Source of the DNA: an uncultured Gemmatimonadota bacterium
GTDB lineage: Bacteria > JAAXHH01
DNA: 64,000 nt
Direction of reading: 5' to 3'
NCBI GenBank assembly: GCA_951812955.1
Contig: OX638340.1
Location: forward strand, 1,024,001 to 1,088,000
Shown here: positions 13,787 through 47,156 of the stretch, in pieces
Layout: each line of letters begins with the position of its first letter
Position numbering within the stretch: position 1 is the first letter of the stretch
Notes under the pieces: generated by a model
What the model was told of the DNA's origin: nothing
The model's database searches: none
Seen by the model: only the letters and a program-made list of their open reading frames with translations
Program-made: the position numbers and the translations under genes

Positions 13787-13816
13787 AATTGAACCTGCCG
13801 TCGGACCGGGCAGTTT

Positions 13817-13865
13817 ACCTGAAGTCTTTCGATCCTGGCAGATAACCTGAAGTCTTTCGATCCTG
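13817..13865 (+). repeat. 2 x 21-bp perfect direct repeat ACCTGAAGTCTTTCGATCCTG (7-bp spacer) in 5' leader of larA-like gene
   Basis: copies at 13817-13837 and 13845-13865. Confidence 0.9.
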
Positions 13866-13906
13866 TCCCCTTGTGCATCAAGTGGCCATCCCGAAAGTGG
13901 TTCGCG

Positions 13907-15463
13907 ATGAAATACCTGACCTATTCCGGTAACAACATCATCCACGCGGAACTGCCCGAAGAAGCGTCGGTCTTCTTCCCTCCGCCACCGCTCCCTGGAA
14001 TACCGAACAAGGATATACCGAACCGGGTCAGGGCGGCCTTCGAATCTCCCCTGGACATGCCGCCCCTGGAGGAACTGGTCGACGAGAAGAGCAGGATCCT
14101 CATCGCTTTCGACGACAATTGCCAGCCCTTTCCAGCTACCGCGCCGCCCGATATCCGCCAGCTCGCCATCGAGGCTCTGCTGGATATGCTCGACAGCTAC
14201 GGGGTGAAGCTGGAAAACATCGAGCTTATGTGTGCGGTCGCGCTGCATCGCAAGATGAAGGACTACGAATTGGCCGCCATGCTAGGCAAGCGCATCATGA
14301 AAACCTTCCACCCCCATCAACTGGTCAATTTCGACGCCGAGGACCCCGACGACATCGTCGTGCTGGGTACGACCGAAGAGGGAGAACCGGTGGAGACCAG
14401 CCGCAAGGTCATCGAAAGCGACCTGGTGATCTACGTGGACTCCATTCAGATTCCCCTGAACGGGGGACACAAATCCGTGGCCGTGGGTCTGGGAACGTAC
14501 AACAGCATCGCGCCGCACCACGCGCCCCAGATGACCTCTGAGAAGCCCCACGTCATGCAGCCCGAAGGTTCCGAAATGCACGGTTCAATCGAGCGCATTA
14601 GCCGCGTCATACTGAAACACACCCGCGTCATGGTCCTCGAGGCCGCCATGAACAACGCGTCCTATCCCCCGCTGATGCGCTATCTCAGCAAACCGGCGGA
14701 GCGTTGCAACCTGTTCGAGCGCGTGCTGAAGGCCACGACGCCGGCGTCCATGAAACTGTTGCCCGAATCGGTGCGATTCCAGGTATTCAAGGGCATTCAG
14801 AGCGCCTATCTTCCCGTCGAGATCAATGCCGGCTCAATCGACGCCGTCCACGAACCGACGCTGCAGACGCTGAAGGACCAGTTGCTGGTGACGACCGACC
14901 ACCAGCACGACACACTCGTATTCGGCCTGCCCGACCTCAGTCCCTACTCGGTCGGTGCGCGGATCAACCCGGTCCTGGTCCTGAGCGACGTCCTCGGATA
15001 CGTATTCAACTGGTTCTACAACAAGCCCTTCGTGAAGCCGGGAGGCGTGGTTATCATCATGAACCCGGTCTTCGAGTACTTCCATCCCGAGTACCACGTC
15101 GCCTACGAGAAGTTCTGGAACGAGGTGCTGCCCGAGACCCAGGATCCCTTCGAGATGCAATCGGCTTTCCAGGAGAAGTTCGCCCGGGATCCCCACATGA
15201 TCGACTGTTACCGGCACCGCTTCGCCCACCACGGCTTCCATCCCTTCACCGTGTGGTACTGGGCGACTTACCCGCTTAAATACCTGTCCAGGGTGATCCT
15301 GGCCGGCCCGAAAACAGACTTCGCCGCCAAGAGGCTGGGCGTTTCCTGGGCGCCGGACCTGGAGCACGCACTGGGTCAGGCCCGCGAAGTTACCGGCGGC
15401 GACGACGTGGTGGCCCTGACCATCCCGCCCTTCATGTACATGCAGGTGAATGACAAGGGTTAA
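13907..15463 (+). CDS. LarA-like (nickel-pincer-cofactor-dependent lactate racemase family, DUF2088) protein
   Basis: Start at MKYLTYSG; N-terminal region resembles LarA/DUF2088 topology; no larBCE nearby. Confidence 0.55.
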   Translation: MKYLTYSGNNIIHAELPEEASVFFPPPPLPGIPNKDIPNRVRAAFESPLDMPPLEELVDEKSRILIAFDDNCQPFPATAPPDIRQLAIEALLDMLDSYGVKLENIELMCAVALHRKMKDYELAAMLGKRIMKTFHPHQLVNFDAEDPDDIVVLGTTEEGEPVETSRKVIESDLVIYVDSIQIPLNGGHKSVAVGLGTYNSIAPHHAPQMTSEKPHVMQPEGSEMHGSIERISRVILKHTRVMVLEAAMNNASYPPLMRYLSKPAERCNLFERVLKATTPASMKLLPESVRFQVFKGIQSAYLPVEINAGSIDAVHEPTLQTLKDQLLVTTDHQHDTLVFGLPDLSPYSVGARINPVLVLSDVLGYVFNWFYNKPFVKPGGVVIIMNPVFEYFHPEYHVAYEKFWNEVLPETQDPFEMQSAFQEKFARDPHMIDCYRHRFAHHGFHPFTVWYWATYPLKYLSRVILAGPKTDFAAKRLGVSWAPDLEHALGQAREVTGGDDVVALTIPPFMYMQVNDKG

Positions 15464-15485
15464 TTAAGCGCGCTAATGACAAGGA

Positions 15486-16511
15486 TTAAGAGAGCGCGCC
15501 ACGGAGTTTCCCCACCAGGTCACGGGCCGGCGCAAAGGGCAGCGTAACGACCGCCCGGCGCAACGCGCTTTCGTAAATCCCCAGGATCACGCTGAAGTCG
15601 GACAGCGCCGAATCGATGTTCAACGGGTGGACGGCCGAGTCGTCTTCGATCCAGTCGATCATGGCTTCGGTCATCGCCGCCTGGCCGCGGATGTCTTCCT
15701 CGGCGTAGACATGTTCCCCGCTTTCGTATTTGTTGTCTATCCTGGATTCCCAACCGTGCATGGTCCAATGCACGTACCCCTTGTCCCCGTACACCGCAAT
15801 ACGCTTGTGGACGTTTACCGCTCCGGCGGCGATAACGCGAGGCGCGACGGCGCCGCAGCGCAGCAGGGCGCTCACGCCGTTGTCGTAGTTGATGACTCCG
15901 GTGCAATGGTCCGGCGCGTAGTGGTGCCTGGAGGTTTCGGCCAGTCCTTCCGGGCCCGATACCTGTCCGAAGACATCGACCGGCGTCGCGCCGGTGTTGA
16001 AAGCACCTACGGCCTGCAGCGCGTGCGTCCCCTGGTAGGCCAGGTTCATCCCCGCACTGGCCTCAATGAAGCGTAGATTCCCGATTGCGCCTTCCCGCAC
16101 CTTCCGCTGAAACAGGCTCCGTCGAGGGTGAAAGTGCAACTGGTGATTGACGGCTATTTTGACCCTGGCAGACCGCGCGAAGGCCTGCATCGCCAGGAAA
16201 TCCTCTCCCTGGATGGCAACGGGTTTCTCGACCAGCACGGCCGGTATCCCCGCCGACTCCGCCGCTTCGAAGATCTCCATGCGTACCGAGGGCGGCGTGT
16301 TAACATGGACCAGGTCCGGTTTCTCCCGCTCGAACATCTCGCGGTAGTCTGTGTACCTCGCGGACACATCGAACGCCGATCCGAAGGCATCGAGCTTATC
16401 CCGCTGACGGCTCGACACGGCGGCCAGGCTTCCGCGGCTTACGTGCCGGTAGGCCTCGGCCAGTCCACGAGCCCTCCCGCCGCTGACCCCGATGATTGCG
16501 CTTTTCATCAT
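15486..16511 (-). CDS. Gfo/Idh/MocA family NAD(P)-dependent oxidoreductase
   Basis: Start at MMKSAIIGVSGGRARGLA (Rossmann); ORF track extends to 16676 but that would overlap the adh gene and the repeat array. Confidence 0.8.
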   Translation of the reverse strand: MMKSAIIGVSGGRARGLAEAYRHVSRGSLAAVSSRQRDKLDAFGSAFDVSARYTDYREMFEREKPDLVHVNTPPSVRMEIFEAAESAGIPAVLVEKPVAIQGEDFLAMQAFARSARVKIAVNHQLHFHPRRSLFQRKVREGAIGNLRFIEASAGMNLAYQGTHALQAVGAFNTGATPVDVFGQVSGPEGLAETSRHHYAPDHCTGVINYDNGVSALLRCGAVAPRVIAAGAVNVHKRIAVYGDKGYVHWTMHGWESRIDNKYESGEHVYAEEDIRGQAAMTEAMIDWIEDDSAVHPLNIDSALSDFSVILGIYESALRRAVVTLPFAPARDLVGKLRGALS

Positions 16512-16542
16512 ATTGATATTTGCCTCGCCTGTTCGAAATGCT

Positions 16543-16625
16543 AGGCAATGCGAGACCGGTCCAGGTAATGCGGGACCCTTCCAGGTAATGCGAGACCTAC
16601 CTCGGTAATGCGGGACCCGTACCGT
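16543..16625. repeat. 4 x ~20-bp tandem direct repeat AGGYAATGCGRGACCnnnnCC between adh stop and Gfo/Idh/MocA start
   Basis: aggcaatgcgagaccggtcc / aggtaatgcgggacccttcc / aggtaatgcgagacctacctc / ggtaatgcgggacccgtaccgt. Confidence 0.85.
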
Positions 16626-16638
16626 ACCCGGCCGGCCG

Positions 16639-17658
16639 TCAGGTCCATGGCCGGATGACGACTTTCCCACATTCACCGGATACCTGCGTCTCCCATGCGC
16701 GCTGTATTTCGTCTATGGAAAATACGTGCGTAATGAGTCGATCCACTTTCTTCCTGTTTCGATCAATGATGCCCATGATATCGTGGGCACCCTTCATGTT
16801 GTAATGCCAGGAACCTTTCAGATCGATGCCCTTGCGAATCATGTCGTCGCTTACGACCAGCCGGGTGTCCGCACCGCTCTCACCGACGAAGGCGAGGCTC
16901 CCTCTCCTGCGAAGTGCATCGATGCAGAATCTGTGCGCGGTCGGAGAACCTGAACAGTCCACGGCCTTGTCGACGCCGGTGCCGCCGGTCAGCTCGCGTA
17001 TGCGTTCCGCCGCGTGTTCGTCCCGTGGACAGATGACGTGCGCGGCACCCAATTCCCTTGCCTTCGCCTTCCGGTAAGGATGGGATTCCACGGCGATGAC
17101 CTCGGCGCCCATGTGACTTGCGCAGATCACGCCGCCCAGGCCTACCGGTCCCATTCCGGTTATAAGGACGGTTTCACCGCCCCTCAACCGAAGACGGTCC
17201 AGTGCGCCGTAGGTCGGTCCCAGTCCGCAGCAGGCCATGGCCCCATGCTCATAGGACATGCCTTCGGGGATTGGCGTTAAAAGCCAGTCCTGTTTGAGCA
17301 TGTACTGGGCCAGGGTCGCCTTGCCTTCGTCGCTTCCCGTGAACGCTGCGAAATCCACGACGTTTTCACAATGTATGTAGTCTCCGGAACGACACAGCGC
17401 GCATCCGCCGCACGGATACTGCGGCATGACCGCGACCCGGTCTCCTGCCCTGACAAGACCGGGCTGCGCGACTTCGACCACCTCGCCCGCCGCTTCGTGA
17501 CCGAGAAAATCCGCCCTGTGGCCGGCCGCGAAACCCTTGTACTCGGTGCAGAGCGGCGCCGCGTGTATCTTGATCGGAACCCAGTCTTCCTTTGGTTTCG
17601 GTTCGTCGGCCTCGACGGTGCCTCCGTGGTTCTTTCCGAGGATTACGGCTCTCTTCAT
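16639..17658 (-). CDS. zinc-dependent alcohol dehydrogenase (MDR superfamily)
   Basis: Start at MKRAVILG; GHEAAGEVVEV, CGGCALCRSG structural-zinc motif, GxGxxG. Confidence 0.85.
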   Translation of the reverse strand: MKRAVILGKNHGGTVEADEPKPKEDWVPIKIHAAPLCTEYKGFAAGHRADFLGHEAAGEVVEVAQPGLVRAGDRVAVMPQYPCGGCALCRSGDYIHCENVVDFAAFTGSDEGKATLAQYMLKQDWLLTPIPEGMSYEHGAMACCGLGPTYGALDRLRLRGGETVLITGMGPVGLGGVICASHMGAEVIAVESHPYRKAKARELGAAHVICPRDEHAAERIRELTGGTGVDKAVDCSGSPTAHRFCIDALRRRGSLAFVGESGADTRLVVSDDMIRKGIDLKGSWHYNMKGAHDIMGIIDRNRKKVDRLITHVFSIDEIQRAWETQVSGECGKVVIRPWT

Positions 17659-17794
17659 CGGTAAACGTCCCCCCACGCGAAATCGGGTTACAAATCGTGG
17701 TCTGCGGCCGAACAGGTTGCGTGATGCGTAAGCCGCAATATAACGTCCGTCCGATCTTGACGCAACATACCGAAGACTGTTACTTGGTAAGTCA

Positions 17795-19042
17795 ATGAGC
17801 AGACTTTATCACAACGAATCCGGCCGTGTCATACCGGCGCTGTGCGAGGAACTTACGAGGTTCCGGCGTGCCCGCGTCATCCTGAACCTGCCGGCCACCG
17901 GTTCGGACGCGAACCTGTACGTGCTTGCCCGGCCCCATCGGACCGGCGACAACCCGCTGAACCTGTCCATCAACGGGATCCGTCAGGCTGCAATCCACGC
18001 TGGTGCGGATCTGCATTACAGATGGTATGAAGGGGTCGTAAAAGCCGGCGACCTGCGCGAAGGAGAGAACGTGGTGGCGTTATGGGCCGAGGACAGTGCG
18101 ATGACGGGTTGGTCGCTCGCGCTGGAACCCGGGGGCGCCTCATCCAGCAGTTTCCTTTCCGACGATGGGGGTACGGTCTGGCGCTCCGACCGGATGGGAT
18201 ATCTGAACGCGGTGCAGGGCAACTACTGCGTACGCATTCGCCTGATGGAAGGCCAAGACGATCCGCCTCCGGATATGGTGTGGGAGTCCCCCATTCATCC
18301 TAGGACACGGTCGCTCCACGAGCTGCTCCCGCGCCGTGCCGTTAACGCCACGGATCGGCTCACCCAGGTACGGGAACTGTCTTCCTGGCTGGCTTCGAGC
18401 TGGGAACATTCCGGGTCCCGTCGCGCGACGGTTTACGCGCCGTGGGACGCGGAGACCATACTCGCCTGGGGCGGCAGCCAGCGCGGTCACAACGACGAGC
18501 GTCCCATCGCCATGTGCGTACATTACGCGGTGGCCTTCGTCAGTGCCTGCCAGTCACTCGGCATCCCGGCGCGCTGCGCAGCGCTGACGGGCACGCCCAA
18601 CGGATATGACGGTCATTTCGTGGCGGAAGTCTGGTTCGAGGAACACCGGAAATGGGTGATGGTCGACCCGAACTGCGACGCGATCCTGTTCCGTAACGGG
18701 CAACCGCTGTCCATCGAGGAGATTCAGGAACTGGGAGGCGGACTGGAGCCTTACGTGGCATGGGGTGTCGGTACGCGGTACCAGCGGACTTTCTCCCATA
18801 TAAAAGACTTCATTCGCAACAATCTGACTAAAGGGGCGTGTTTCCGGAACAGAAGCGTCTGGCCGAGGACCGACTTCCTGTCCCGTCCCGAGTATACGCC
18901 TCCGGGCCACGGATCCGTCTCCTACTGTGAGACCGACCTGGTCTGGACGGAATCGGACGTGGAATCAGGCTTCGGAATGTTCAGGTATTTCGCGCAAAAC
19001 GACTACTTTGCCGCGCCACCCGACAGGACCGCCTATGCCTGA
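17795..19042 (+). CDS. transglutaminase-like cysteine protease superfamily protein
   Basis: 415 aa; Cys-His-Asp core MCVHYAVAFVSACQSLGIPARC ... DGHFVAEVWFEEHRKWVMVDPN. Confidence 0.65.
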   Translation: MSRLYHNESGRVIPALCEELTRFRRARVILNLPATGSDANLYVLARPHRTGDNPLNLSINGIRQAAIHAGADLHYRWYEGVVKAGDLREGENVVALWAEDSAMTGWSLALEPGGASSSSFLSDDGGTVWRSDRMGYLNAVQGNYCVRIRLMEGQDDPPPDMVWESPIHPRTRSLHELLPRRAVNATDRLTQVRELSSWLASSWEHSGSRRATVYAPWDAETILAWGGSQRGHNDERPIAMCVHYAVAFVSACQSLGIPARCAALTGTPNGYDGHFVAEVWFEEHRKWVMVDPNCDAILFRNGQPLSIEEIQELGGGLEPYVAWGVGTRYQRTFSHIKDFIRNNLTKGACFRNRSVWPRTDFLSRPEYTPPGHGSVSYCETDLVWTESDVESGFGMFRYFAQNDYFAAPPDRTAYA

Positions 19043-20048
19043 CGTGATCACGAGCGAAGAAGCGCTGATCGACCAGATGACGACCCCATCACGGCCGGTA
19101 GTCCAGGCGGTATCGGCACTGGATGGGGATGTGTTGATCCTGGGGGCCGGCGGTAAGATGGGGCCGACACTCGCGGAACTCCTCGTTAGGGCCGGCGCGC
19201 GGCGCGTGATCGGGATATCGCGGTTCAGCGACGCGAAGGTCAGGACATCCCTCGAGGAAGCGGGCGTGGAGACCATCCAGGCGGACCTGCTAAGCGAGCA
19301 AGACCTGGGCCGTCTCCCGGATGCGCCGTACGTCCTCTTACTAGCGGGATTCAAGTTCGGCGCCACGGGAAACTCGCCCATGACGTGGGCGATGAACACA
19401 TGGCTTCCCGGCCGTATCATGCAGCGGTATGCCGAATCCCGTGTAGTCTACGTCAGTTCCGGCAACGTATACGCCTATTCGCCGGTCATGGCAGGCGGTT
19501 CCGACGAGGAAGCCGAAATCGGGCCGGTGGGTGAATACGCCCAGTCCCGACTGGGTGGTGAACGCATTGCGGAGCACCTTAGCGTCGAGCAAGGCACTCC
19601 GCTGCTTATCGTGCGACTGTTTTACGCCACGGAGCTGCGCTACGGCATCATGCACGACCTGGGCCGGAAAATCCACGAAGACGTGCCGATCGACCTGGCC
19701 ATGGGTCATGTAAACCAGATCTGGCAGGGGGACGCGAACAGCTACCTTGCCCGCATGTTCCCGTTCTGCAGCAGTCCCGCCACGATCCTGAACCTGACGG
19801 GACCGGACATCCTCTCCGTTCGGTCGGTGTCCGAGATGCTTGGCCGTCGACTCGAAAGAAAGCCGCAGTTTACGGGCCACGAGAGCGAAACGGCGCTGCT
19901 TGGCGACGCCCGCAGACTTTTCGACAAGCTGGGCAAGCCTGAGATACCGGTGGAAAGGATCGCGGACTGGGTTGCCCACTGGCTCCGCACTGGTGGCCGA
20001 AGCCTGGATAAACCGACCGGCTACGAATCGCGCTCCGGACGTTTCTGA
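19035..20048 (+). CDS. NAD-dependent epimerase/dehydratase family protein
   Basis: Start MPDVITSEE overlaps upstream stop (ATGCCTGA); Rossmann LILGAGGKMG. Confidence 0.7.
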   Translation: MPDVITSEEALIDQMTTPSRPVVQAVSALDGDVLILGAGGKMGPTLAELLVRAGARRVIGISRFSDAKVRTSLEEAGVETIQADLLSEQDLGRLPDAPYVLLLAGFKFGATGNSPMTWAMNTWLPGRIMQRYAESRVVYVSSGNVYAYSPVMAGGSDEEAEIGPVGEYAQSRLGGERIAEHLSVEQGTPLLIVRLFYATELRYGIMHDLGRKIHEDVPIDLAMGHVNQIWQGDANSYLARMFPFCSSPATILNLTGPDILSVRSVSEMLGRRLERKPQFTGHESETALLGDARRLFDKLGKPEIPVERIADWVAHWLRTGGRSLDKPTGYESRSGRF

Positions 20049-20105
20049 GCGTGAGTGCCGTTTAACCAGGGAAGCGAATATGGGATCCGATTCCCCATAC
20101 CATAT

Positions 20106-20151
20106 GGATACTCGGCCGCGGACGCCTGGCCGCGGATGCTCGGCCGCGGGA
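20106..20151 (+). repeat. 3 x GGCCGCGG-core direct repeats at 14-bp spacing upstream of dapA-like gene, preceded by CCATATGG palindrome
   Basis: GGCCGCGG at 20114-20121, 20128-20135, 20142-20149; CCATATGG 20100-20107. Confidence 0.8.
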
Positions 20152-20184
20152 TGAATTGAAAACGTACGTTTCCGGAGATTACTC

Positions 20185-21246
20185 ATGCATGACGTTATGC
20201 CCCCGGCAGTCCGGGCTGCTTTGAAACAGGGCGTGGTTATCCCGGCCCATCCCCTGGCAGTCACGGCAGACAGAATGCTGGACGAGCGCCGCCAGCGTGC
20301 GCTCACGCGGTACTACCTCGCTGCCGGTGCCGGTGGCCTTGCCGTGGGCGTTCATACGACCCAGTTCGAGATCCGGGATCCGACGTACGGACTCTACGAT
20401 CCGGTGCTGGGGCTTACCGCGGAGATCATGGACCGGGAAGCACCGGCGGATTTCATCCGGATCGCCGGGATCTGTGGACGGACGGCGCAGGCGACCGGCG
20501 AGGCGGAAACGGCAAGATCCCTTGGCTACCATGCCGGCCTGCTCAGCCTGACCGCCATGGGCGGCGCCACGGACGACGAACTTATCGCGCACTGCCGGGC
20601 CGTGGCCGACGCCATACCCGTCATGGGGTTCTACCTGCAGCCGTCTGTCGGCGGCCTGGTGCTCCCCTTCCGTTTCTGGCGGCGATTCGTGGAACTGGAA
20701 GGGGTCGTGGCCATAAAGATCGCGGCGTTCAACCGGTATCACACGCTCGACGTGCTCAGGGCACTGGCGGAATCCGGCAGGCACGAGGAGATCGCGCTCT
20801 ACACCGGAAACGACGACAACATCGTGATGGATCTCCTGACGGAGCACGCATTCCAGTGCGGAGACGCGCGCCGGTCGGTACGGTTCAGGGGCGGGCTGCT
20901 TGGTCACTGGGCTGTATGGACCCGGGGAGCTGTGGAGTTGCTGCGGGCGTGTCAGGCCGTCTCGACATCCTGCGAGGCGGTACCCCAGAACCTGCTGACC
21001 CGATCGATCGAGGTCACGGACTGCAACGCGGCATTCTTCGATCCTGCCCATGGTTTTGCCGGGTGCATCCCCGGGATTCACGAGGTGCTGCGCAGGCAGG
21101 GACTGCTCGAAGGCAACTGGTGCTTAAATCCCGAAGAGACCCTTTCGCCCGGCCAGTACGAGGAGATAGACCGGGTTTACCGCGCTTATCCCCATCTGAA
21201 CGACGACGCGTTCGTCGCAGAACACCGGGACGACTGGCTCAGATGA
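20185..21246 (+). CDS. dihydrodipicolinate synthase/N-acetylneuraminate lyase-like class I aldolase family protein
   Basis: 353 aa; TIM-barrel DapA-like family pattern (VVIPAHPLAVTADRMLDERRQRALTRYY). Confidence 0.65.
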   Translation: MHDVMPPAVRAALKQGVVIPAHPLAVTADRMLDERRQRALTRYYLAAGAGGLAVGVHTTQFEIRDPTYGLYDPVLGLTAEIMDREAPADFIRIAGICGRTAQATGEAETARSLGYHAGLLSLTAMGGATDDELIAHCRAVADAIPVMGFYLQPSVGGLVLPFRFWRRFVELEGVVAIKIAAFNRYHTLDVLRALAESGRHEEIALYTGNDDNIVMDLLTEHAFQCGDARRSVRFRGGLLGHWAVWTRGAVELLRACQAVSTSCEAVPQNLLTRSIEVTDCNAAFFDPAHGFAGCIPGIHEVLRRQGLLEGNWCLNPEETLSPGQYEEIDRVYRAYPHLNDDAFVAEHRDDWLR

Positions 21247-21278
21247 ATGCACAGTAGAAAACCTCATCCGCATGACGG

Positions 21279-22427
21279 ATGCTTGAACCGCCGGAAACGG
21301 AGCAGAACATGAAGATAACCCGCATTGAAACCATTCCTGTCGAAGTGCCACTCAAGCAGGGCATGACCACGAAAACCGCTCACGGCGAACATATCGTCTC
21401 CCCTTACGTCATACTCAGGGTGCATACGGACGAGGGGCTGACCGGGTTGGGCGAAGCCACGGTCGCGCCGCGCTGGAGCGGAGAAACGTCCGCGTCCTGT
21501 ACAGCTGCGATCCGGGATCTGGTGGATCCCGCGCTGAAGGGGGAGGATCCGGCTGACGTGAACCGGCTTTGCGGAGTCATGGACGAGGTCGTCAAGCTGA
21601 ACCCCTTCACCAAGGCGGGCGTGGAGATGGCCCTTTGGGACCTGGCGGGCAAGCATGCGGGGAAGCCTCTCTATCAATTGCTGGGCGGAAAGGTCCGGCA
21701 AGAGATTCCAATGAAGATGGTGGTCGGCGCCTTTGACGTGCCGACTTCGGTTGCCCTGGCGGAGAAATTCCTGCAGTGGGGTGTGCAGTGTCTCAAGGTC
21801 AAAGTCGGGCTGGATCCCGGGGAGGATCTCGAACGCGTCCGCGCGGTCCGCGCGCTGGCCGGCCCCGACATCCGTATGAGCATCGACGCGAATTGCGGGT
21901 GGCCGCCGGCCGTTGCGCGACGCATGTTGCATCTCCTCGAGCCATTGGACATCCTGTTCGCAGAGCAGCCCATGGCACCGCAGTTCGACGATGAAGCGGC
22001 CCTGATCAGAACGGGCACGACCATCCCCATCATGGCCGACGAGAGCGTCTTCACCCCGCACGACGCCATGCAGACCGCACTGCGCCGATCGGCGGACATC
22101 ATCAGCGTATATCCGGGCAAGAACGGAGGGATCGGACAGACGCTGGGCATCTCGCACGTGGCCAGCGCGGCGGGACTGCGCTGTCACATGGGCAGCAATC
22201 TCGAGTTGGGGATCGCCACGGCGGCCATGCTCCACGTGGCGGCCAGCGTGGAACCCATCGACAGTGAGACCTATCCCGGCGACCTGCTCGGTCCGCTGTA
22301 CCACGAAGGCGATATGATCGAGACGCCGCTGGAACTCGGCCCCGTCCATGCGAGCGTACCCGAAGGACCCGGTCTCGGAGTCACCCTGGATGAAGCACAG
22401 ATCGAACGCTGGAAAGACGCGTCATGA
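21279..22427 (+). CDS. mandelate racemase/muconate lactonizing enzyme (enolase superfamily) protein
   Basis: 382 aa; MKITRIETIPV..., KVKVG, metal ligands D/E/D pattern (SIDANCGW, FAEQP, MADES). Confidence 0.8.
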   Translation: MLEPPETEQNMKITRIETIPVEVPLKQGMTTKTAHGEHIVSPYVILRVHTDEGLTGLGEATVAPRWSGETSASCTAAIRDLVDPALKGEDPADVNRLCGVMDEVVKLNPFTKAGVEMALWDLAGKHAGKPLYQLLGGKVRQEIPMKMVVGAFDVPTSVALAEKFLQWGVQCLKVKVGLDPGEDLERVRAVRALAGPDIRMSIDANCGWPPAVARRMLHLLEPLDILFAEQPMAPQFDDEAALIRTGTTIPIMADESVFTPHDAMQTALRRSADIISVYPGKNGGIGQTLGISHVASAAGLRCHMGSNLELGIATAAMLHVAASVEPIDSETYPGDLLGPLYHEGDMIETPLELGPVHASVPEGPGLGVTLDEAQIERWKDAS

Positions 22428-22441
22428 CCGGCTGTTCGAAC

Positions 22442-22513
22442 GGAATCCCACCCATGACCGGATCCGCATGCATGACCGGAATCCCACCTATGACCGGATC
22501 CACACGCATGACC
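22442..22513 (+). repeat. 4 x 18-bp tandem repeat (GGAATCCCACCCATGACC / GGATCCGCATGCATGACC / GGAATCCCACCTATGACC / GGATCCACACGCATGACC) between enolase-family gene and Gfo/Idh/MocA gene
   Basis: read directly; CATGACC core recurs 5 times from the stop codon of the upstream gene. Confidence 0.85.
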
Positions 22514-22589
22514 GTTACGCGCGGCACGATACACAGTTACGAGCATAGCGCCAACCTAGAAGCAGTACCAAACTACAGAAAGGACAGCC

Positions 22590-23648
22590 ATGGCTGACGA
22601 ACGGACCTACAAGGCTTGCGTGGTGGGCCTGAGCGGCATCGGGGCGGGGCAGCCCCCGGTCGACGGCGACCACGGAATGGGCCAAGAAATGCCTAACCGG
22701 CACGTACCGGCCTATGCCCTCCTGCCGTTTACGGAGGTGGTCGGTGTATGTGACCTGAAAGAAGACCTCCTGCAGGAAACCATGGATGATTGGTCGGGTA
22801 CCTTCCCGGGATTGCGGGGATTCGCGGACTACAGGGAGATGCTTGAAGCCTGCAAACCGGATATACTGAGCGTAGTAACATCGGACCACCGCCACGCGGA
22901 CATCGTCGTGGACGGAGTCGCGGCGGGCGTTCGGGGCATCTATTGCGAGAAACCGATTGCGACCTCACTTGCGGATGCCGACCGCATGATCGCCGCGGTG
23001 GAAAGCCGGAACGTGCCCATGAACATCAACCACACCCGCCGCTGGGGAGCGGTATACCGGGAAGTCAGGAAGCTGCTCGACGAAGGCGCGATCGGCGAGC
23101 TGAAACGCATCACGCTGAATTTCGGCGGCCCCCGGGCCATTCTTTTCCGCAACGGCACCCACATGATCGACATGGCCTGCTACCTCGCGGGATCGGAACC
23201 CGCGTGGGTTTTCGCCGAACTCGACGAAGGCTACGAGGACTACTGGCCCTACCAGGGCGATGGCGGAAGGAACGCGGACCTGGAGCCGGGCTGCTCCGGT
23301 TTCATCCATTTCAAGAACGGCGTGCGTGCATTTTACAACGGTTCCAAGGGAATGGAATGCCGTGGAGGTTACCAGCTGGACGGTACCGACGGATGGATGT
23401 TCGTTCACGAGGACTATTACGAGCTCGACACGGGTAAAGGTATCCAGACTGTCGCTCCCAAGGGTCCGACCCATTACTACTCCGTCGCGGCTATCCGGGA
23501 CCTCGTCCACGTCATGGAACACGGAGGTGAGACCATTTCACCTCCCCGCGCCGCCCGGAATACCCTGGAGATCATCCTGGGGTTTCTCGCATCACAGAAG
23601 CACGGCAACGTACGCATAGATTTCCCGCTGGACGAGAACACCGTATAG
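22590..23648 (+). CDS. Gfo/Idh/MocA family oxidoreductase
   Basis: 352 aa; N-terminal Rossmann CVVGLSGIGAG, EKP motif GIYCEKP. Confidence 0.8.
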   Translation: MADERTYKACVVGLSGIGAGQPPVDGDHGMGQEMPNRHVPAYALLPFTEVVGVCDLKEDLLQETMDDWSGTFPGLRGFADYREMLEACKPDILSVVTSDHRHADIVVDGVAAGVRGIYCEKPIATSLADADRMIAAVESRNVPMNINHTRRWGAVYREVRKLLDEGAIGELKRITLNFGGPRAILFRNGTHMIDMACYLAGSEPAWVFAELDEGYEDYWPYQGDGGRNADLEPGCSGFIHFKNGVRAFYNGSKGMECRGGYQLDGTDGWMFVHEDYYELDTGKGIQTVAPKGPTHYYSVAAIRDLVHVMEHGGETISPPRAARNTLEIILGFLASQKHGNVRIDFPLDENTV

Positions 23649-23671
23649 CCTTCCACGAGCGGTAACTTCCC

Positions 23672-25714
23672 ATGAGCGTTCGCATCGCCATCGACACGGG
23701 CGGCACGTTTACAGACCTTGTATTGTCCGACCCCGACACGGGCCGGCTGGTCTTTCACAAGGTGCCGAGTACGCCCGCCGATCCGAGCCGGGCACTGGTG
23801 GAAGGTGTCAAAGGGCTCGTCGACCGGGCCGGCGTCGGCACTGCCGAAATCCTGTTTCTGATTCACGGTACCACGGTGGCCACCAATACGATCCTTCAGC
23901 GGAAGGGGGCCCATACCGCCTTCATCACCACCGAAGGGTTCCGGGACGTGCTCCACATCCAGCGGCAGGACCGCCCCCACCTGTACAACATGCGCATCCG
24001 CCGGACCCCGGCCCTCGTACCCCGCTCACTGCGATATGAGCTGCCCGAACGGACCCTGCACGACGGGTCGGAAGCGGCGCCGATAGACCAAGATCGACTT
24101 GGCAGCCTCGTGGCGGCACTCAGGGAGGAAGGCATCGAAGCCGTCGGCGTCGGGTTTCTCCACAGTCACATCGATCCCGGTCACGAACAATCGGCAGGCG
24201 AAGTGCTGCGGCGGGCACTGCCCGAAACCACAGTCTGCCTCTCCTCCGACATGAGTCGTGAAGAAGGCGAATACGAACGGTTCAGTACTTGCGTCATGAA
24301 CGCCTACGTGCAGCCCATCATGACGAACTACCTGAAGAAGGTGGACGATGCCCTTTCCAAGGCATCCATCGAGGCGCCGCTGTATGTCATGAAATCCAAT
24401 GGCGGGGTCACCTCGGCCCGGGACGCAGCGGATCACTGCGTGCATACGATTCTTTCAGGTCCGGCCGGGGGTGTCGTGGCCGGCGAGGAAATCGGAAGGC
24501 GGCTCGACCGGCCAAACGTCATCACCGCCGACATGGGGGGAACAAGTTTCGACGTGGCGATGATATATGAACGCAACATAGCTTTCGCGAAGAACGCGGA
24601 GATCGACGGCCTGGCCCTCAAAGCCCCCATGATGGACATCCATACGATTGGCGCAGGCGGTGGCAGCATCGCATGGATCGATTCGGGCGGCGCCCTGAGG
24701 GTGGGCCCGCAATCGGCAGGGGCGGAGCCGGGTCCCGCCTGCTACGGCGCCGGCGGTTCCGAACCCACCGTGACAGACGCGAACCTGGTGCTGGGCCGGC
24801 TCTCCACGGACAGTCTGCTGGGCGGCGCGCTGTCGCTGGATTCCGAAACCGCGCGTCGGGTGATCGACGAGAAAATCGCGGCCAGTCTGCAATGCACGGT
24901 GGAGGAGGCCGCCGAAGGGATCATCCGGGTGATCAACGCCTCCATGACGGCGGCCATCCGGAAGCTCACCGTGGAACGGGGGTACGATCCCCGCCTCTTT
25001 ACGCTGGTTCCCTTCGGCGGCGCAGGACCGCTCCATGGTACCGCTCTTGCCCGGGAACTGGGCATACGCGACGTGGTGGTACCGCTCGCGCCCGGGGTCG
25101 CTTCGGCCGAGGGCCTCGTTTTTTCGAACCTGCGTTCGGACCGGATCCAGACCCACGTAGAACTGCTGGATCGACTCGGGGCTTCGGAATTCGAGAAGAT
25201 GCTGGAAGAACTGACCGTACAGGCGGAAGGGGATCTGTCTACTTCGTCGGCTACAGGCCATCCGGTCATCAGCCGGCGCGCGGGCCTGCGATACGCAGGT
25301 CAGGGGTACGATATTCCCATCGACCTGCCCGAGGGCGCCGCCGACCTCGCCTTGCTCGAATCGGCCTTTCACCTCGAGCACGAGCGCCAGTACGGATTCG
25401 CGCGGCGTGATCAACGGGTTCAACTCGTCAACCTGTGGGTGTCTGCGGAACTGGTGATTTCGGGCAGCCGGCGTGATACCGCCGAACGAGCCGTGCCGGA
25501 TCGACCCAAACCACCTACCATGCGGCCCGTGTATCTTTCAGGCAACTGGATCGAAACAGCCGTGTTTGACCGTACCGCACTGCGCAGCGGCCAACAGATC
25601 GACGGACCGGCCATCATCGAACAGCTTGATTCCACGACACTGATCTGGCCCGGTGAGCACGCAGGAATCGATGCCTGGGATCAGATCGTCATTGCCGGAC
25701 TGGAAAACCCATGA
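23672..25714 (+). CDS. hyuA: hydantoinase/oxoprolinase A subunit family (HyuA-like) ATP-dependent hydrolase/carboxylase component
   Basis: 680 aa; MSVRIAIDTGGTFTDLVL N-terminus characteristic of hydantoinase A. Confidence 0.85.
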   Translation: MSVRIAIDTGGTFTDLVLSDPDTGRLVFHKVPSTPADPSRALVEGVKGLVDRAGVGTAEILFLIHGTTVATNTILQRKGAHTAFITTEGFRDVLHIQRQDRPHLYNMRIRRTPALVPRSLRYELPERTLHDGSEAAPIDQDRLGSLVAALREEGIEAVGVGFLHSHIDPGHEQSAGEVLRRALPETTVCLSSDMSREEGEYERFSTCVMNAYVQPIMTNYLKKVDDALSKASIEAPLYVMKSNGGVTSARDAADHCVHTILSGPAGGVVAGEEIGRRLDRPNVITADMGGTSFDVAMIYERNIAFAKNAEIDGLALKAPMMDIHTIGAGGGSIAWIDSGGALRVGPQSAGAEPGPACYGAGGSEPTVTDANLVLGRLSTDSLLGGALSLDSETARRVIDEKIAASLQCTVEEAAEGIIRVINASMTAAIRKLTVERGYDPRLFTLVPFGGAGPLHGTALARELGIRDVVVPLAPGVASAEGLVFSNLRSDRIQTHVELLDRLGASEFEKMLEELTVQAEGDLSTSSATGHPVISRRAGLRYAGQGYDIPIDLPEGAADLALLESAFHLEHERQYGFARRDQRVQLVNLWVSAELVISGSRRDTAERAVPDRPKPPTMRPVYLSGNWIETAVFDRTALRSGQQIDGPAIIEQLDSTTLIWPGEHAGIDAWDQIVIAGLENP

Positions 25715-27390
25715 AGACCGACCCCATCACCCTGGAACTGATGCGCAACCGGTGGACCGGCATCGCGGAGGAAATGTGCGCCGCGCTGATCCGCACCAGT
25801 TACTCCACCAATATCAAGGACCGGCGCGACTGTTCCGCGGCCATCGTGCAGCCCACGGGGGAGATCCTGGCCCAGGCCGAGTCGGGCGTCCCCTTACACC
25901 TGGGCGTGATGCCAGGCGTGGTGAAGTCCATCCTGGAAGTCTATCCCGTGTCGGCCATGAAGCCTGGAGACGTCTACATCACGAACCTGCCGTATCCCGA
26001 AGGACCGGGCCATCTGCCGGATGTTTCCCTGGTATCCGCCATATTCTATGAAAACCGCGCGGTCGCACTGGCGGCATCCACCGCCCATCACGTGGACATG
26101 GGCGGGTTCGCACCGGGCAGCATGCCCTTCGGCGTGACGGAAATCTACCAGGAGGGCCTGCAGATCCCCCCGCTCCCCATTTTCAAGGGCGGACAGCTTG
26201 ACGAAGATATCTACAAGTTGATCAACCAGAACGTGCGGACGCAGTACGAGGTGCGGGGCGACCTGATGGCCCAGTACGCCTGCGCACAGATCGGCCAGCA
26301 GAGGGTAAGCGAACTCATGTCCAGGGAGTCGCCCGAAGAAGTAATCCACTACATGGACGAGATCCAGGACTACGCGGAACGACGGATGCGGGCGGGGATA
26401 GGGACCCTGCCCGACGGCGAGTACACCTTCGAGGACTACCTGGACGACGACGGCGTCACCGATACGCCAGTGAAGATCGCGGTCGCCCTGACCGTCTCGG
26501 GCGACGAACTGCGCGCGGACTTTTCGGGTTGCAGCGACCAGGTTCTGGGTCCGCTGAACGCGCGGCTGCCGGCGGCCGCTTCCTGCATAAGCTACGTGTG
26601 CAAGGCGGTGATCGATCCGGACCTGCCCGCGTGTGCCGGGGCGTACCGGCCCCTGGACATCTTCGCCCCCGAGGGATCCATCCTGCAGGCTACCTATCCG
26701 GCGGCCATCGGGAACGCCAACATCCTGACGGACCAGCGGGTCGTGGACGTGCTGATGGGCGCGCTGTACCAGGCCGCGCCCGACCGCGTATGCGCGGCCT
26801 GCAGCGGGGAGATGAACCTGGTAAATATCGGCGGAATCGATCCTGCTTCCGGGGAGTACTACAACTACGTGGAAACCTACGCCGGTGGGCAGGGCGCCAT
26901 GTTCGACATCGACGGAGAGGACGGCGTGCACACGCACCTCACCAACACACGGAACGCGCCGGTCGAAATCATGGAACGTACCTACCCGCTGCGGGTCGAG
27001 CGGTACGGCCTGATCCCGGATACGGAGGGGCCCGGCCGCCAGCGCGGAGGCTGCGGGATGATGCGGGAGCTGAAGTGCCTGGGTGAACGCACCATCATCA
27101 CCCTGGGTTCAGACCGCCGGAAGTTCACGCCCTGGGGGCTCGAAGGCGGCGGCAATGCGTCGGGCGCCCACTGTTACGTGATCGACAACGAAGGGCAGGT
27201 CAGGGAGATCCCTACCAAGGCCCATACCGAGCTTTACAGGGACGACGTCCTGCGGATCGAAACCCCCGGCGGCGGTGGCTGGGGAGACCCGGCCGAACGG
27301 GTCCGGGAGAAAGTGGAAGAGGATGTGCGAAACGAGCTCATTGGCCCGGAACGGGCGAGCGGACACTACAGATGGGGGAAGGATCAGTAA
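25711..27390 (+). CDS. hyuB: hydantoinase B/oxoprolinase family (HyuB-like)
   Basis: 559 aa; ATGA overlap with hyuA; MKTDPITLELMRNRW...IRTSYSTNIKDRRDCS characteristic. Confidence 0.85.
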   Translation: MKTDPITLELMRNRWTGIAEEMCAALIRTSYSTNIKDRRDCSAAIVQPTGEILAQAESGVPLHLGVMPGVVKSILEVYPVSAMKPGDVYITNLPYPEGPGHLPDVSLVSAIFYENRAVALAASTAHHVDMGGFAPGSMPFGVTEIYQEGLQIPPLPIFKGGQLDEDIYKLINQNVRTQYEVRGDLMAQYACAQIGQQRVSELMSRESPEEVIHYMDEIQDYAERRMRAGIGTLPDGEYTFEDYLDDDGVTDTPVKIAVALTVSGDELRADFSGCSDQVLGPLNARLPAAASCISYVCKAVIDPDLPACAGAYRPLDIFAPEGSILQATYPAAIGNANILTDQRVVDVLMGALYQAAPDRVCAACSGEMNLVNIGGIDPASGEYYNYVETYAGGQGAMFDIDGEDGVHTHLTNTRNAPVEIMERTYPLRVERYGLIPDTEGPGRQRGGCGMMRELKCLGERTIITLGSDRRKFTPWGLEGGGNASGAHCYVIDNEGQVREIPTKAHTELYRDDVLRIETPGGGGWGDPAERVREKVEEDVRNELIGPERASGHYRWGKDQ

Positions 27391-47128: not shown

Positions 47129-47156
47129 GTAACGGGATCAGTAGGCCTGGGCGTAA

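What the first reader, a model, noticed from the sequence alone, without database searches (positions are those of the whole stretch)
22419..22513. 4 x 18-bp tandem repeat beginning at the stop codon of the enolase-family gene
The units GGAATCCCACCCATGACC, GGATCCGCATGCATGACC, GGAATCCCACCTATGACC and GGATCCACACGCATGACC alternate as an A/B pair. The CATGACC core recurs 5 times starting at TCATGACCGG, which contains the TGA stop. The array is only 75 nt upstream of the next Gfo/Idh/MocA gene. This is a possible multi-site operator or a phase-variable or structured spacer. It also creates a spurious His/Asp-rich 66-aa ORF (22348-22548).
Basis: seen in the sequence. Interest (0 to 1): 0.5.

Follow-up and report, generated by a model that had tools for sequence, protein, structure and literature searches.

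The report
Strain-variable tandem repeat between two operon genes
The 4 x 18-bp repeat is real, but it is most likely an ordinary, lineage-specific minisatellite that grew by tandem duplication in a dispensable spacer between two co-transcribed genes, not a conserved operator, switch or RNA structure.

Summary
The array is real. It has four 18-nt units in an A-B-A-B pattern at 22442-22513. TRF scores it 127; the best of 100 dinucleotide shuffles scored 66. It lies in the 162-nt spacer between a mandelate-racemase/enolase-family gene (stop at 22425-22427) and a Gfo/Idh/MocA gene (start at 22590). Both belong to a syntenic operon of an uncultured Gemmatimonadota/"Latescibacterota" clade.

In 23 related strains or species the same spacer is 27-162 nt long, and only the ribosome-binding site next to the start codon is conserved. 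The two nearest lineages (about 95% nucleotide identity, eight contigs) carry one A-B pair. Relatives about 10% or more diverged lack the unit. The window's two A-B copies differ at 3 of 36 positions, about the neutral divergence between strains, so the duplication is old and stable.

I found no RNA structure, Rfam match, promoter, terminator or copy of the unit elsewhere.

The best explanation is near-neutral spacer growth by duplications that began at the upstream gene's stop-codon context. Every indel of 21 nt or more between the window and its nearest relative is of this kind, and this sub-clade is rich in such arrays.

A minor reading remains open: a 57-codon ORF bridges the spacer from ATGA to ATGGCTGA, which resembles MIRU-type translational coupling. 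It is broken in the nearest relatives.

The parts
21309..22427 (+). Upstream gene: mandelate racemase/muconate-lactonizing (enolase-superfamily) enzyme, 372 aa, stop TGA at 22425-22427
   Evidence: Pfam MR_MLE_N and MR_MLE_C. The homologues are 370-372 aa and align from residue 11 of the longer ORF.
22423..22431 (+). CATGACCGG at the stop codon. This native gene-end sequence is the motif the repeat units carry. It holds both the TGA stop and an overlapping ATG (ATGA).
   Evidence: family D2: 22423, 22453, 22471. The same GCGTCATGA(C/T) gene end is present in relatives that have no array (L006, L014, L016, L022, L026, L027).
22432..22440 (+). CTGTTCGAA, the pre-array spacer sequence. It is older than the array: CTGTTCGAAC is also present in L006, which has no repeat.
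22442..22477 (+). First A-B pair of 18-nt units (A1 22442-22459, B2 22460-22477)
22478..22513 (+). Second A-B pair (A3 22478-22495, B4 22496-22513). It differs from the first pair at 3 of 36 positions. One A-B pair's worth of sequence (a 35-nt gap) is missing in the 2-unit relatives.
   Evidence: MAFFT places a 35-nt gap in L001 at 22463.
22511..22544 (+). Older, decayed 22-nt tandem duplication in the spacer tail (ACCGTTACGCGC / ACAGTTACGAGC)
   Evidence: the repeat finder family D3.
22576..22589 (+). CAGAAAGGACAGCC, the ribosome-binding region of the downstream gene. It is the only part of the spacer conserved across the clade.
   Evidence: Spacers of 22 relatives.
22590..23648 (+). Downstream gene: Gfo/Idh/MocA oxidoreductase, 352 aa
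   Evidence: Pfam GFO_IDH_MocA and its C3 domain. Synteny holds in all relatives.
22424..22597 (+). 57-codon ORF bridging the whole spacer. Its ATG overlaps the upstream stop (ATGA) and its TGA lies in ATGGCTGA at the downstream start. All five ATGs of the array are in this frame. It is probably fortuitous.
   Evidence: The ORF is open in the window, L014, L020, L022 and L026. It is broken in the nearest relatives L015 and L029, whose 127-nt spacer is not a multiple of 3.
16543..16620 (-). Sister case in the same gene cluster: 4 x 20-nt units in the spacer between the zinc alcohol dehydrogenase (ADH) gene and the first Gfo/Idh/MocA gene (GFO1). It shows the same 4 (window) / 2 (L001) / 0 (L006, L007) pattern.

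Best explanation
The array is a lineage-specific intercistronic minisatellite (a VNTR). It grew by successive tandem duplications in a spacer that tolerates almost any sequence upstream of the downstream gene's ribosome-binding site.

The units carry the upstream gene's own stop-codon context (CATGACCGG). This suggests the first duplication spanned the gene end: the upstream copy kept the intact stop, and the downstream copy became non-coding. An 18-nt unit then diverged into the A-B pair seen in all three close lineages. In the window's lineage the 36-nt pair is present twice, giving A-B-A-B. Whether that reflects a gain here or a loss in the sister lineages cannot be decided.

The mechanism (replication slippage or unequal exchange between short repeats) is inferred. 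The array is transcribed as part of the operon mRNA and most likely has no sequence-specific function. Its only expected effect is to lengthen the distance between the two genes.

Shown here: the array's reality, its copy-number difference between lineages, its absence in more distant relatives, its neutral-like divergence, and the lack of structure, promoter, terminator or dispersed copies.

Inferred: the duplication mechanism, co-transcription and neutrality.
For: 1. **The spacer is hypervariable.** The orthologous spacer is 27-162 nt in 23 strains or species with identical gene order. Only CAGAAAGGAC-N4-ATG is shared.
2. **Copy number differs between lineages.** The window has 4 units. There are 2 units in L001-L005/L029 and in L013/L015/L035. 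These are two lineages that differ from the window by 3-4% of nucleotides in the MR_MLE gene and 4.7% over 16 kb. No unit is present in relatives 10-13% diverged.
3. **Tandem duplication is the dominant large indel.** All four indels of 21 nt or more in 16 kb of window-versus-L001 alignment are copy differences of tandem duplications at intergenic spacers: 26, 40, 21 and 35 nt. Three of them start at or include a stop codon.
4. **Other species have different tandem duplications in the same spacer.** L017 has 17 x 2, L020 has 19 x 2, and L028 has two kinds.
5. **Divergence looks neutral.** The two A-B copies differ at 3 of 36 positions (8%). Third-codon-position divergence between the window and L029 is 8.8-9.4%.
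6. **The unit is not dispersed.** It is found only at this locus in the held sequence. It has no match in the plasmid or phage collections.
7. **No functional signal.** No RNA structure signal, no Rfam family, and no promoter or terminator in the spacer.
8. **The sub-clade is rich in such arrays.** There are 19 arrays in 106 kb of orthologous loci and 6 in the 64-kb window. There are none in 144 kb from more distant relatives and none in 100 kb of E. coli K-12.
Against: - Neutrality is inferred from non-conservation, not measured.
- Both arrays of this gene cluster show the same 4-versus-2 difference between the window and L001. Both are preceded on the + strand by CTGTTCGAA, which occurs 4 times in the window against 0.6 expected. 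This coincidence is unexplained.
- In the window the array sits in an ORF that exactly bridges the two genes, which a neutral model treats as chance.
- Arrays in three co-directional spacers of this operon all have 17-18-nt units carrying ATGA. This hints at a selective filter or a shared mechanism.
- Within-population copy number in the window's own strain could not be examined.
- The rest of the genome could not be searched for the unit.
Confidence: 0.75

Rival explanations
1. MIRU-like translational-coupling spacer. Ribosomes terminating at the upstream TGA would reinitiate at the overlapping ATG (ATGA, 22424). They would translate the 57-codon bridging ORF through the array and terminate at the TGA in ATGGCTGA, delivering them to the downstream start. 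The 18-nt unit and the 36-nt duplication are multiples of 3, so the array could expand without breaking this relay.
For: The bridging ORF runs exactly from ATGA to 8 nt past the downstream ATG in the window. The same is true in L014, L020 and L022, and L026 has a similar ORF. A gene caller called the L014 version as a 31-aa gene.

The next spacer of the operon (GFO2-HydA) carries 17-nt units in 7 relatives. Each unit is a 6-codon mini-ORF whose TGA overlaps the next ATG, and the chain ends on the HydA start.

MIRUs are described as carrying an ORF coupled at -4 nt to the adjacent gene (PMC12548453).
Against: - The two nearest relatives break the relay. Their spacer is 127 nt, and their ATGA ORF ends 41 nt before the start.
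- Eleven of 23 relatives have no ATGA, and several have 27-nt spacers with no ORF at all.
- Differences from L020 in the shared tail fall 5, 5 and 3 on codon positions 1, 2 and 3 (by eye), so the peptide is not under selection.
- My rough estimate of an open frame arising by chance is 5-15%.
- The sister array at 16543 has 20-nt units and no overlapping ATG.
- Chains of open mini-ORFs follow almost automatically when an ATGA-containing, G+C-rich unit is repeated.
Confidence: 0.1
2. Multi-site operator. A transcription factor would bind the four direct repeats and regulate the Gfo/Idh/MocA-hydantoinase genes.
For: There are four regularly spaced direct repeats upstream of a gene. They contain short palindromes (GGATCC, GCATGC, CGGATCCG).
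Against: - The repeats are absent from orthologous spacers of all but the two closest lineages, while gene order is fully conserved.
- No promoter-like site occurs in 20000-24000.
- The unit is not found upstream of any other gene in the held sequence.
- The 18-nt spacing is off the helical repeat.
- No regulator gene lies adjacent.
Confidence: 0.04
3. Phase-variable (contingency) locus. Frequent gain and loss of units would switch expression of the downstream gene.
For: Copy number does differ between closely related lineages, 4 versus 2.
Against: - The units are long (18 nt) and imperfect. Period-18 identity is 78% and period-36 identity is 92%.
- The copies have accumulated about 8% divergence, equal to neutral inter-strain divergence.
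- Five L001-type contigs (L001-L005, from different samples) all carry the same 2-unit allele, and so do three L015-type contigs.
- The array is not inside a promoter or a coding frame.
Confidence: 0.04
4. Structured or protein-binding RNA element in the operon mRNA. Candidates are a processing site, an attenuator, or a CsrA-type GGA-motif cluster acting on the downstream RBS.
For: Each unit contains a GGA motif (CCGGAAUCC or CCGGAUCC), and the RBS is AAGGA.
Against: Folding energy is indistinguishable from shuffles on both strands. There is no Rfam match at E <= 1. The element is not conserved in relatives.
Confidence: 0.03
5. Assembly artefact. The extra 36 nt would be a spurious duplication created by the assembler.
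For: Tandem repeats are a known source of assembly error (title of PMC6868369, listed). Only this one sequence shows 4 units.
Against: The two 36-nt copies differ at 3 positions, which a spurious duplication would not produce. The whole array (72 nt) is shorter than a typical read. A second, unrelated array in the same window shows the same doubling with diverged copies.
Confidence: 0.02

Closest known systems
Bacterial minisatellites / VNTR loci (the markers used in MLVA typing)
   Same: Head-to-tail units of 10-100 bp lie in an intergenic spacer. The flanks are conserved and copy number differs between strains. Minisatellites are listed among the small variable segments of bacterial genomes in PMC2884548.
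   Different: Nothing differs in kind. This one lies in an uncultured Gemmatimonadota/Latescibacterota lineage, and its units are already well diverged, so it is a slow VNTR.
Mycobacterial interspersed repetitive units (MIRUs)
   Same: Both are tandem units in intercistronic spacers of operons, with copy number varying between strains. Both carry an ORF that overlaps the neighbouring gene's start or stop with -4 spacing (PMC12548453). The window's array lies in such an ORF.
   Different: MIRUs are longer, about 46-101 bp (my own knowledge of Supply et al. 1997 and 2000). They form a dispersed, apparently mobile family at about 40 loci. Here the unit is 18 nt, derives from the local gene end, is found at one locus only, and its ORF is broken in the nearest relatives.
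Simple-sequence contingency loci (phase variation in Neisseria and Haemophilus)
   Same: Repeats lie near a gene start, and their number can change.
   Different: From my own knowledge, those repeats have 1-9-nt units, are near-perfect, sit inside promoters or reading frames, and switch at high rates. This array has imperfect 18-nt units, lies in an intercistronic spacer without a promoter signal, and is stable over about 5% genome divergence.
Iterons / direct-repeat operator arrays
   Same: Both are arrays of 17-22-bp direct repeats.
   Different: From my own knowledge, iterons sit at plasmid or phage origins next to their rep gene and are conserved with it. Here the locus is a chromosomal metabolic operon, there is no rep gene, and the repeats are not conserved.
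Small dispersed repeats of cyanobacteria and REP/BIME (palindromic units) of enterobacteria
   Same: Both are short (about 20-37 bp) intergenic units, sometimes tandem (cited in PMC2884548).
   Different: Those are dispersed multi-copy families, often palindromic. This unit is single-locus and has no significant dyad symmetry.

Membership tests
Minisatellite / VNTR | Head-to-tail repetition of a 10-100-bp unit beyond chance | tested here: met
   TRF gives period 18 x 3.9 and period 36 x 2.1, score 127. The best score in 100 shuffles was 66.
Minisatellite / VNTR | Copy number differs between strains at the orthologous locus, with conserved flanks | tested here: met
   There are 4 units in the window, 2 in L001-L005/L029 and 2 in L013/L015/L035. 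The flanks align at about 95%.
MIRU-like intercistronic repeat | Located between co-directional genes of an operon | tested here: met
   The MR_MLE and Gfo/Idh/MocA genes are on the same strand. Synteny is conserved, relatives have spacers as short as 27 nt, and there is no terminator.
MIRU-like intercistronic repeat | Dispersed family: related units at many loci of the genome | tested here: not met
   With up to 3 mismatches the unit occurs only at this locus in the window and in about 0.4 Mb of related loci. Arrays in other spacers derive from their own junction sequences. The caveat is that the complete genome could not be scanned.
MIRU-like intercistronic repeat | Internal ORF overlapping the stop and start codons of the flanking genes | tested here: inconclusive
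   The feature is present in the window (22424-22597) and in 4 relatives. It is broken in the two nearest relatives and absent from short-spacer species.
Phase-variable simple-sequence repeat | Short (1-9 nt), near-perfect units | tested here: not met
   The units are 18 nt. Identity is 78% at period 18 and 92% at period 36.
Phase-variable simple-sequence repeat | Copy-number heterogeneity within a population | not testable with these tools
   No reads are available. Indirectly, five contigs of one lineage (L001-L005, from different samples) all carry the same 2-unit allele, and three of the other 2-unit lineage do as well. The 8% divergence between copies also argues for slow turnover.
Operator / transcription-factor site array | Motif conserved in orthologous regulatory regions | tested here: not met
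   The motif is absent from relatives 10% or more diverged, although the operon structure is identical.
Operator / transcription-factor site array | Association with a promoter, and the motif shared by other regulon members | tested here: not met
   No sigma-70-like site occurs in 20000-24000 (other promoter types are not covered). No other copy of the unit was found.
Operator / transcription-factor site array | Specific protein binding | not testable with these tools
   This needs EMSA or DAP-seq.
Structured cis-regulatory RNA | Stable or conserved secondary structure, or a match to a known family | tested here: not met
   z-scores are -1.05 and -0.17. There are no Rfam matches at E <= 1.

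The most novel reading that the evidence does not exclude
In this Gemmatimonadota/Latescibacterota sub-clade, tandem arrays of 17-18-nt ATGA-carrying units accumulate at gene junctions of operons. They would survive because they preserve a relay of overlapping or in-frame mini-ORFs that keeps the downstream gene translationally coupled. This would be an independently evolved, locally generated analogue of mycobacterial MIRUs. The window's 4 x 18 array would be one working example: ATGA at the upstream stop, five in-frame ATGs, and termination on the downstream start.
Probability: 0.1. Interest if true: 0.5.

Novelty: new member of a known kind. Interest (0 to 1): 0.2.

Why it matters
The array on its own matters little. 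It is a usable strain marker (VNTR) for an uncultured, apparently sponge- or coral-associated lineage. It is also a caution for annotators, because it creates spurious small ORFs.

The wider pattern is mildly interesting. One sub-clade has filled several spacers of a conserved operon with different minisatellites, whereas its slightly more distant relatives keep 27-41-nt spacers in the spacer studied and have no arrays in the 13-kb loci compared. This points either to a lineage-specific slippage or duplication tendency (a repair or replication difference) or to a selective filter linked to translational coupling. Both could be tested on the complete chromosomes now available for this clade.

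Tried and rejected
**RNA and transcription signals**
- RNA folding of 22400-22600 on both strands gave no signal.
- An Rfam E-value scan of 22000-23000 gave nothing.
- A promoter and terminator scan of 20000-24000 found nothing in the spacer.

**Looking for the unit elsewhere**
- An exact-protein look-up of the window's long ORF (382 aa) found nothing on record. The real gene is 372 aa, and the window's strain is not in the collection.
- A search for the units with up to 3 mismatches in all held sequence found only the orthologous locus, plus two chance 3-mismatch hits.
- blastn of the array against plasmids and phages gave no match.
- A metagenome scan with the right-flank pattern gave one contig, which carries the 2-unit allele.

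**Shared-motif ideas**
- ATGA-N13-14-ATGA arrays elsewhere in the window: the 4 non-array matches equal the chance expectation. One of them, at 36483, resembles unit A but lies inside a large coding gene with no extended similarity, so I treat it as chance.
- GAATCCCA occurs 8 times against 2.8 expected. The contexts are unrelated coding sequence.
- CTGTTCGAA lies to the left of both arrays. The other two copies are in coding sequence with no shared context. This remains unexplained and is probably coincidence.
- The idea that arrays in different spacers form one dispersed family was rejected. Each unit reproduces its own junction's native stop or start context, which is also present in array-free relatives.

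**Other**
- Polarity of the 2-versus-4 difference is not resolvable. L015 and L029 are slightly closer to each other than to the window, so a gain in the window's lineage and a loss in their common ancestor are equally parsimonious.
- CRISPR was rejected because the units are contiguous and there are no spacers.
Full report
**1. The observation**

The four 18-nt units are GGAATCCCACCCATGACC (22442-22459), GGATCCGCATGCATGACC (22460-22477), GGAATCCCACCTATGACC (22478-22495) and GGATCCACACGCATGACC (22496-22513).

Tandem Repeats Finder reports the array as period 18 x 3.9 copies (78% matches, score 85). It reports it better as period 36 x 2.1 copies (92% matches, score 127). In 100 dinucleotide-preserving shuffles of the window the best TRF score was 66 and none reached 70, so the array is not chance.

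Minor corrections follow.
- ATGACC occurs five times, but the full CATGACC occurs only four times, because one copy reads TATGACC.
- The copy at the stop codon (CATGACCGG, 22423-22431) is 30 nt from the next copy, not 18.
- The array ends 76 nt before the next start codon.

The 66-aa ORF at 22348-22548 exists. It starts inside the upstream gene in another frame.

**2. Surroundings**

The upstream gene is an MR_MLE (enolase-superfamily) enzyme and the downstream gene is a Gfo/Idh/MocA oxidoreductase. All close homologues of the former are 370-372 aa, so its start is at 21309.

The two genes lie in a co-directional run: DHDPS-like, MR_MLE, Gfo/Idh/MocA, hydantoinase A, hydantoinase B. Upstream are LarN-like, Gfo/Idh/MocA, zinc alcohol dehydrogenase (ADH), transglutaminase-like and epimerase genes.

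No sigma-70-like promoter and no intrinsic-terminator-like site lies in the 162-nt spacer. In some relatives the same two genes are only 27 nt apart. Co-transcription is therefore the reasonable inference.

**3. Relatives**

The window's own strain is not in the protein collection, but a graded series of relatives is. I fetched the orthologous locus from 34 contigs. These represent 22 further strains or species, all with the same gene order.

The public records name them uncultured Gemmatimonadota/Gemmatimonadetes or "Candidatus Latescibacterota" MAGs. Several isolate names (APA_bin, IRC1_bin, SB0665_bin, Plut_) suggest sponge or coral hosts. That reading of the names comes from my own knowledge.

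The spacer between the two genes behaves as follows.
- It is 162 nt with four units in the window.
- It is 127 nt with two units (one A-B pair) in two close lineages: L001-L005/L029 and L013/L015/L035. These differ from the window by 3-4% of nucleotides in the MR_MLE gene, and L001 differs by 4.7% over 16 kb.
- It is 27-114 nt, without this unit, in every relative that is 10% or more diverged in that gene.
- The only segment shared by all is the ribosome-binding region CAGAAAGGACAGCC-ATG.

Several species have filled the same spacer with different tandem duplications. L017 has 17 nt x 2, L020 has 19 nt x 2, and L028/L011 has two kinds. L018 and L025 carry a 9-bp hairpin instead.

The array is therefore young, confined to one small lineage, and not a conserved element.

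**4. Age and stability**

The two A-B copies in the window differ at 3 of 36 positions (8%). Third-codon-position divergence between the window and L029 is 9.4% in the upstream gene and 8.8% in the downstream gene. The non-repeat tail of the spacer differs by about 7%.

So the doubled state is roughly as old as the split from the 2-unit lineages, and the array evolves at about the neutral rate. Five L001-type contigs (L001-L005, from different samples) carry the identical 2-unit allele, and so do three L015-type contigs.

This is the behaviour of a slow VNTR, not of a hypermutable contingency locus. L015 and L029 are marginally closer to each other than to the window. Hence a gain in the window's lineage and a loss in their common ancestor cannot be told apart.

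The diverged copies also argue against an assembly artefact.

**5. Origin**

The motif carried by every unit, CATGACCGG, is the native 3' end of the upstream gene (GCG TCA TGA CC). Nearly the same gene end (GCGTCATGAC or GCGTCATGAT) is present in relatives that have no array, such as L006, L014, L016, L022, L026 and L027.

The simplest history is that a duplication spanned the stop codon. The upstream copy kept an intact gene. Further duplications followed (18 nt, then 36 nt). The spacer tail holds an older, decayed 22-nt duplication (family D3).

The same process is visible all around the locus. In 16 kb of alignment between the window and L001 there are only four indels of 21 nt or more. All four are copy differences of tandem duplications in spacers, and three of them touch a stop codon:

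| Position | Indel | Which sequence has the extra copy |
|---|---|---|
| 15460 | 26 nt | window |
| 16537 | 40 nt | window |
| 21259 | 21 nt | L001 |
| 22463 | 35 nt | window |

The array at 16543-16620 (20 nt x 4, spacer between the ADH gene and the first Gfo/Idh/MocA gene) repeats the story exactly. It has 4 units in the window, 2 in L001 and none in L006 or L007.

With short ancestral spacers of 23-41 nt, almost any tolerated duplication of 17 nt or more must include a gene boundary. That is enough to explain why units carry stop or start contexts.

**6. Tests of the functional readings**

- **RNA structure.** Minimum free energies of 22400-22600 are within about 1 sd of shuffles on both strands (z = -1.05 and -0.17). 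No Rfam family matches at E <= 1.
- **Operator.** There is no conservation, no promoter signal and no neighbouring regulator. No second copy of the unit occurs in the window or in about 0.4 Mb of related loci. Plasmid and phage collections give no match.
- **Phase variation.** See section 4.

**7. The bridging ORF**

An ATG overlaps the upstream stop (ATGA, 22424). From it, a 57-codon ORF runs through the array with all five ATGs in frame. It ends at the TGA of ATGGCTGA, 8 nt into the downstream gene.

This is the architecture described for MIRUs, whose internal ORF is coupled to the adjacent gene at -4 nt (PMC12548453). The same bridge exists in L014 (called as a 31-aa gene), L020, L022 and L026.

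The evidence against it being functional is as follows.
- The nearest relatives L015 and L029 break it. Their spacer is 127 nt and their ORF ends 41 nt short.
- Eleven of the 23 lineages have no ATGA at all.
- Substitutions in the shared tail fall evenly on the three codon positions.
- I estimate that chance alone gives such a bridge in roughly 5-15% of spacers of this composition.

I keep this reading as a 10% rival.

**8. The wider pattern (noticed, partly followed)**

At TRF score 60 or more, array density is as follows:

| Sequence set | Arrays | Length |
|---|---|---|
| Window | 6 | 64 kb |
| Orthologous 13-kb loci of the nine nearest species | 19 | 106 kb |
| More distant relatives | 0 | 144 kb |
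| E. coli K-12 | 0 | 100 kb |

Arrays recur in every spacer of the operon. In the three co-directional spacers the units are 17-18 nt in most arrays and carry ATGA.
- DHDPS-like to MR_MLE: GGATGA(A/G)CGTGCCGGC(C/A)G, 2-10 copies in L016, L018, L019 and L020.
- MR_MLE to Gfo/Idh/MocA: the present array.
- Gfo/Idh/MocA to hydantoinase A: CCATGA(G/A)CGATAACC(A/T)G, 1-6 copies in seven relatives. Each unit is a 6-codon mini-ORF whose TGA overlaps the next ATG.

Each unit reproduces its own junction's native sequence, so these are local products and not one mobile family. Whether the shared length and ATGA reflect a selective filter or a common mechanism is open.

**9. Comparison with known kinds, and verdict**

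The array meets both defining features of a bacterial minisatellite/VNTR: tandem units beyond chance, and copy number that differs between strains with conserved flanks.

It resembles MIRUs in position and, in this one strain, in ORF architecture. It fails the dispersed-family criterion in the sequence I could search, and the ORF criterion is inconclusive. It does not meet the criteria of simple-sequence contingency loci, operator arrays or structured RNAs that could be tested.

It is a new member of a known kind. I score interest at 0.2. The locus itself is ordinary, and the clade-level abundance of junction-seeded minisatellites is a modest curiosity worth a genome-wide look.

Noticed in passing
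window 16543-16620 (relatives: L001 5250-5295): A second array of 4 x 20 nt (A/B alternation, period 40) lies in the spacer between the zinc alcohol dehydrogenase (ADH) gene and the first Gfo/Idh/MocA gene (GFO1), both on the minus strand. It has 4 units in the window, 2 in L001 and none in L006 or L007, which parallels the finding exactly.
   Followed up: yes
window 23649-23671; L001 12312-12331; L014 2556-2669; L016 8274-8328; L017 8317-8388; L018 8277-8331; L019 8209-8229; L020 8281-8339: The spacer before hydantoinase A carries a 17-nt unit, CCATGA(G/A)CGATAACC(A/T)G, in 1-6 copies depending on the species. Each unit is a 6-codon mini-ORF (M-S/N-D-N/S-x-P) whose TGA overlaps the next ATG, and the last one overlaps the real start codon. 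This forms a MIRU-like chain. The window keeps one decayed unit, with ACG in place of ATG.
   Followed up: partly
L016 5770-5960; L018 5840-5960; L020 5912-5985; L019 5948-5990; L029/L001 9917-9952; window 21246-21262 (single copy): The spacer before the MR_MLE gene holds 2-10 units of about 18 nt, each starting with the upstream gene's stop context (GGATGA...). L001 and L029 have a 17-nt unit twice where the window has it once.
   Followed up: partly
window 15449-15499; L017 161-265; L018 170-234; L019 271-374; L020 247-295; L033 179-258: The convergent spacer between the LarN-like gene and GFO1 is also a repeat hotspot. The window has a 26-nt duplication that includes the LarN stop codon, which is single-copy in L001. 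Relatives have G+C-rich arrays of 18-33-nt units with 2-5 copies.
   Followed up: partly
window 30969-31038 (gene 30256-31050, minus strand); L001 18781-19650: In-frame 18-nt repeats encode the hydrophobic N-terminal segment (FAVVAGFAAVVR/FVAVAGFVIIAA) of a TPR-like protein. L001 has one more 18-nt unit (6 residues), so this is a coding VNTR.
   Followed up: partly
window 47137-47174 and 13809-13865: A perfect 19-nt x 2 duplication lies in a convergent spacer. A 28-nt x 2 duplication lies in the divergent spacer upstream of the LarN-like gene, and L001 also has it.
   Followed up: no
window 626, 11070, 16529, 22432 (all + strand): CTGTTCGAA occurs 4 times against 0.6 expected. Two of the copies lie immediately to the left of the two 4-unit arrays. 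The other two are in coding sequence with no shared context. This is unexplained and possibly coincidence.
   Followed up: partly
window plus loci L015-L034: Spacer minisatellites are confined to a sub-clade. At TRF score 60 or more there are 19 arrays in 106 kb of the nine nearest species, none in 144 kb of more distant relatives with the same operon, and none in 100 kb of E. coli K-12.
   Followed up: partly
L018 and L025, about 7130-7165: In these two species the MR_MLE-to-Gfo/Idh/MocA spacer carries a perfect 9-bp stem-loop (GTTCCGCGC-CGAT-GCGCGGAAC) instead of repeats.
   Followed up: no
window 13871-27390: A strictly syntenic 10-gene cluster is conserved across more than 20 species of the clade: LarN-like, 2 x Gfo/Idh/MocA, zinc alcohol dehydrogenase, transglutaminase-like, epimerase, DHDPS-like, MR_MLE and hydantoinase A/B. 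Its substrate is unknown. The same clade is labelled Gemmatimonadota in some records and Latescibacterota in others.
   Followed up: no
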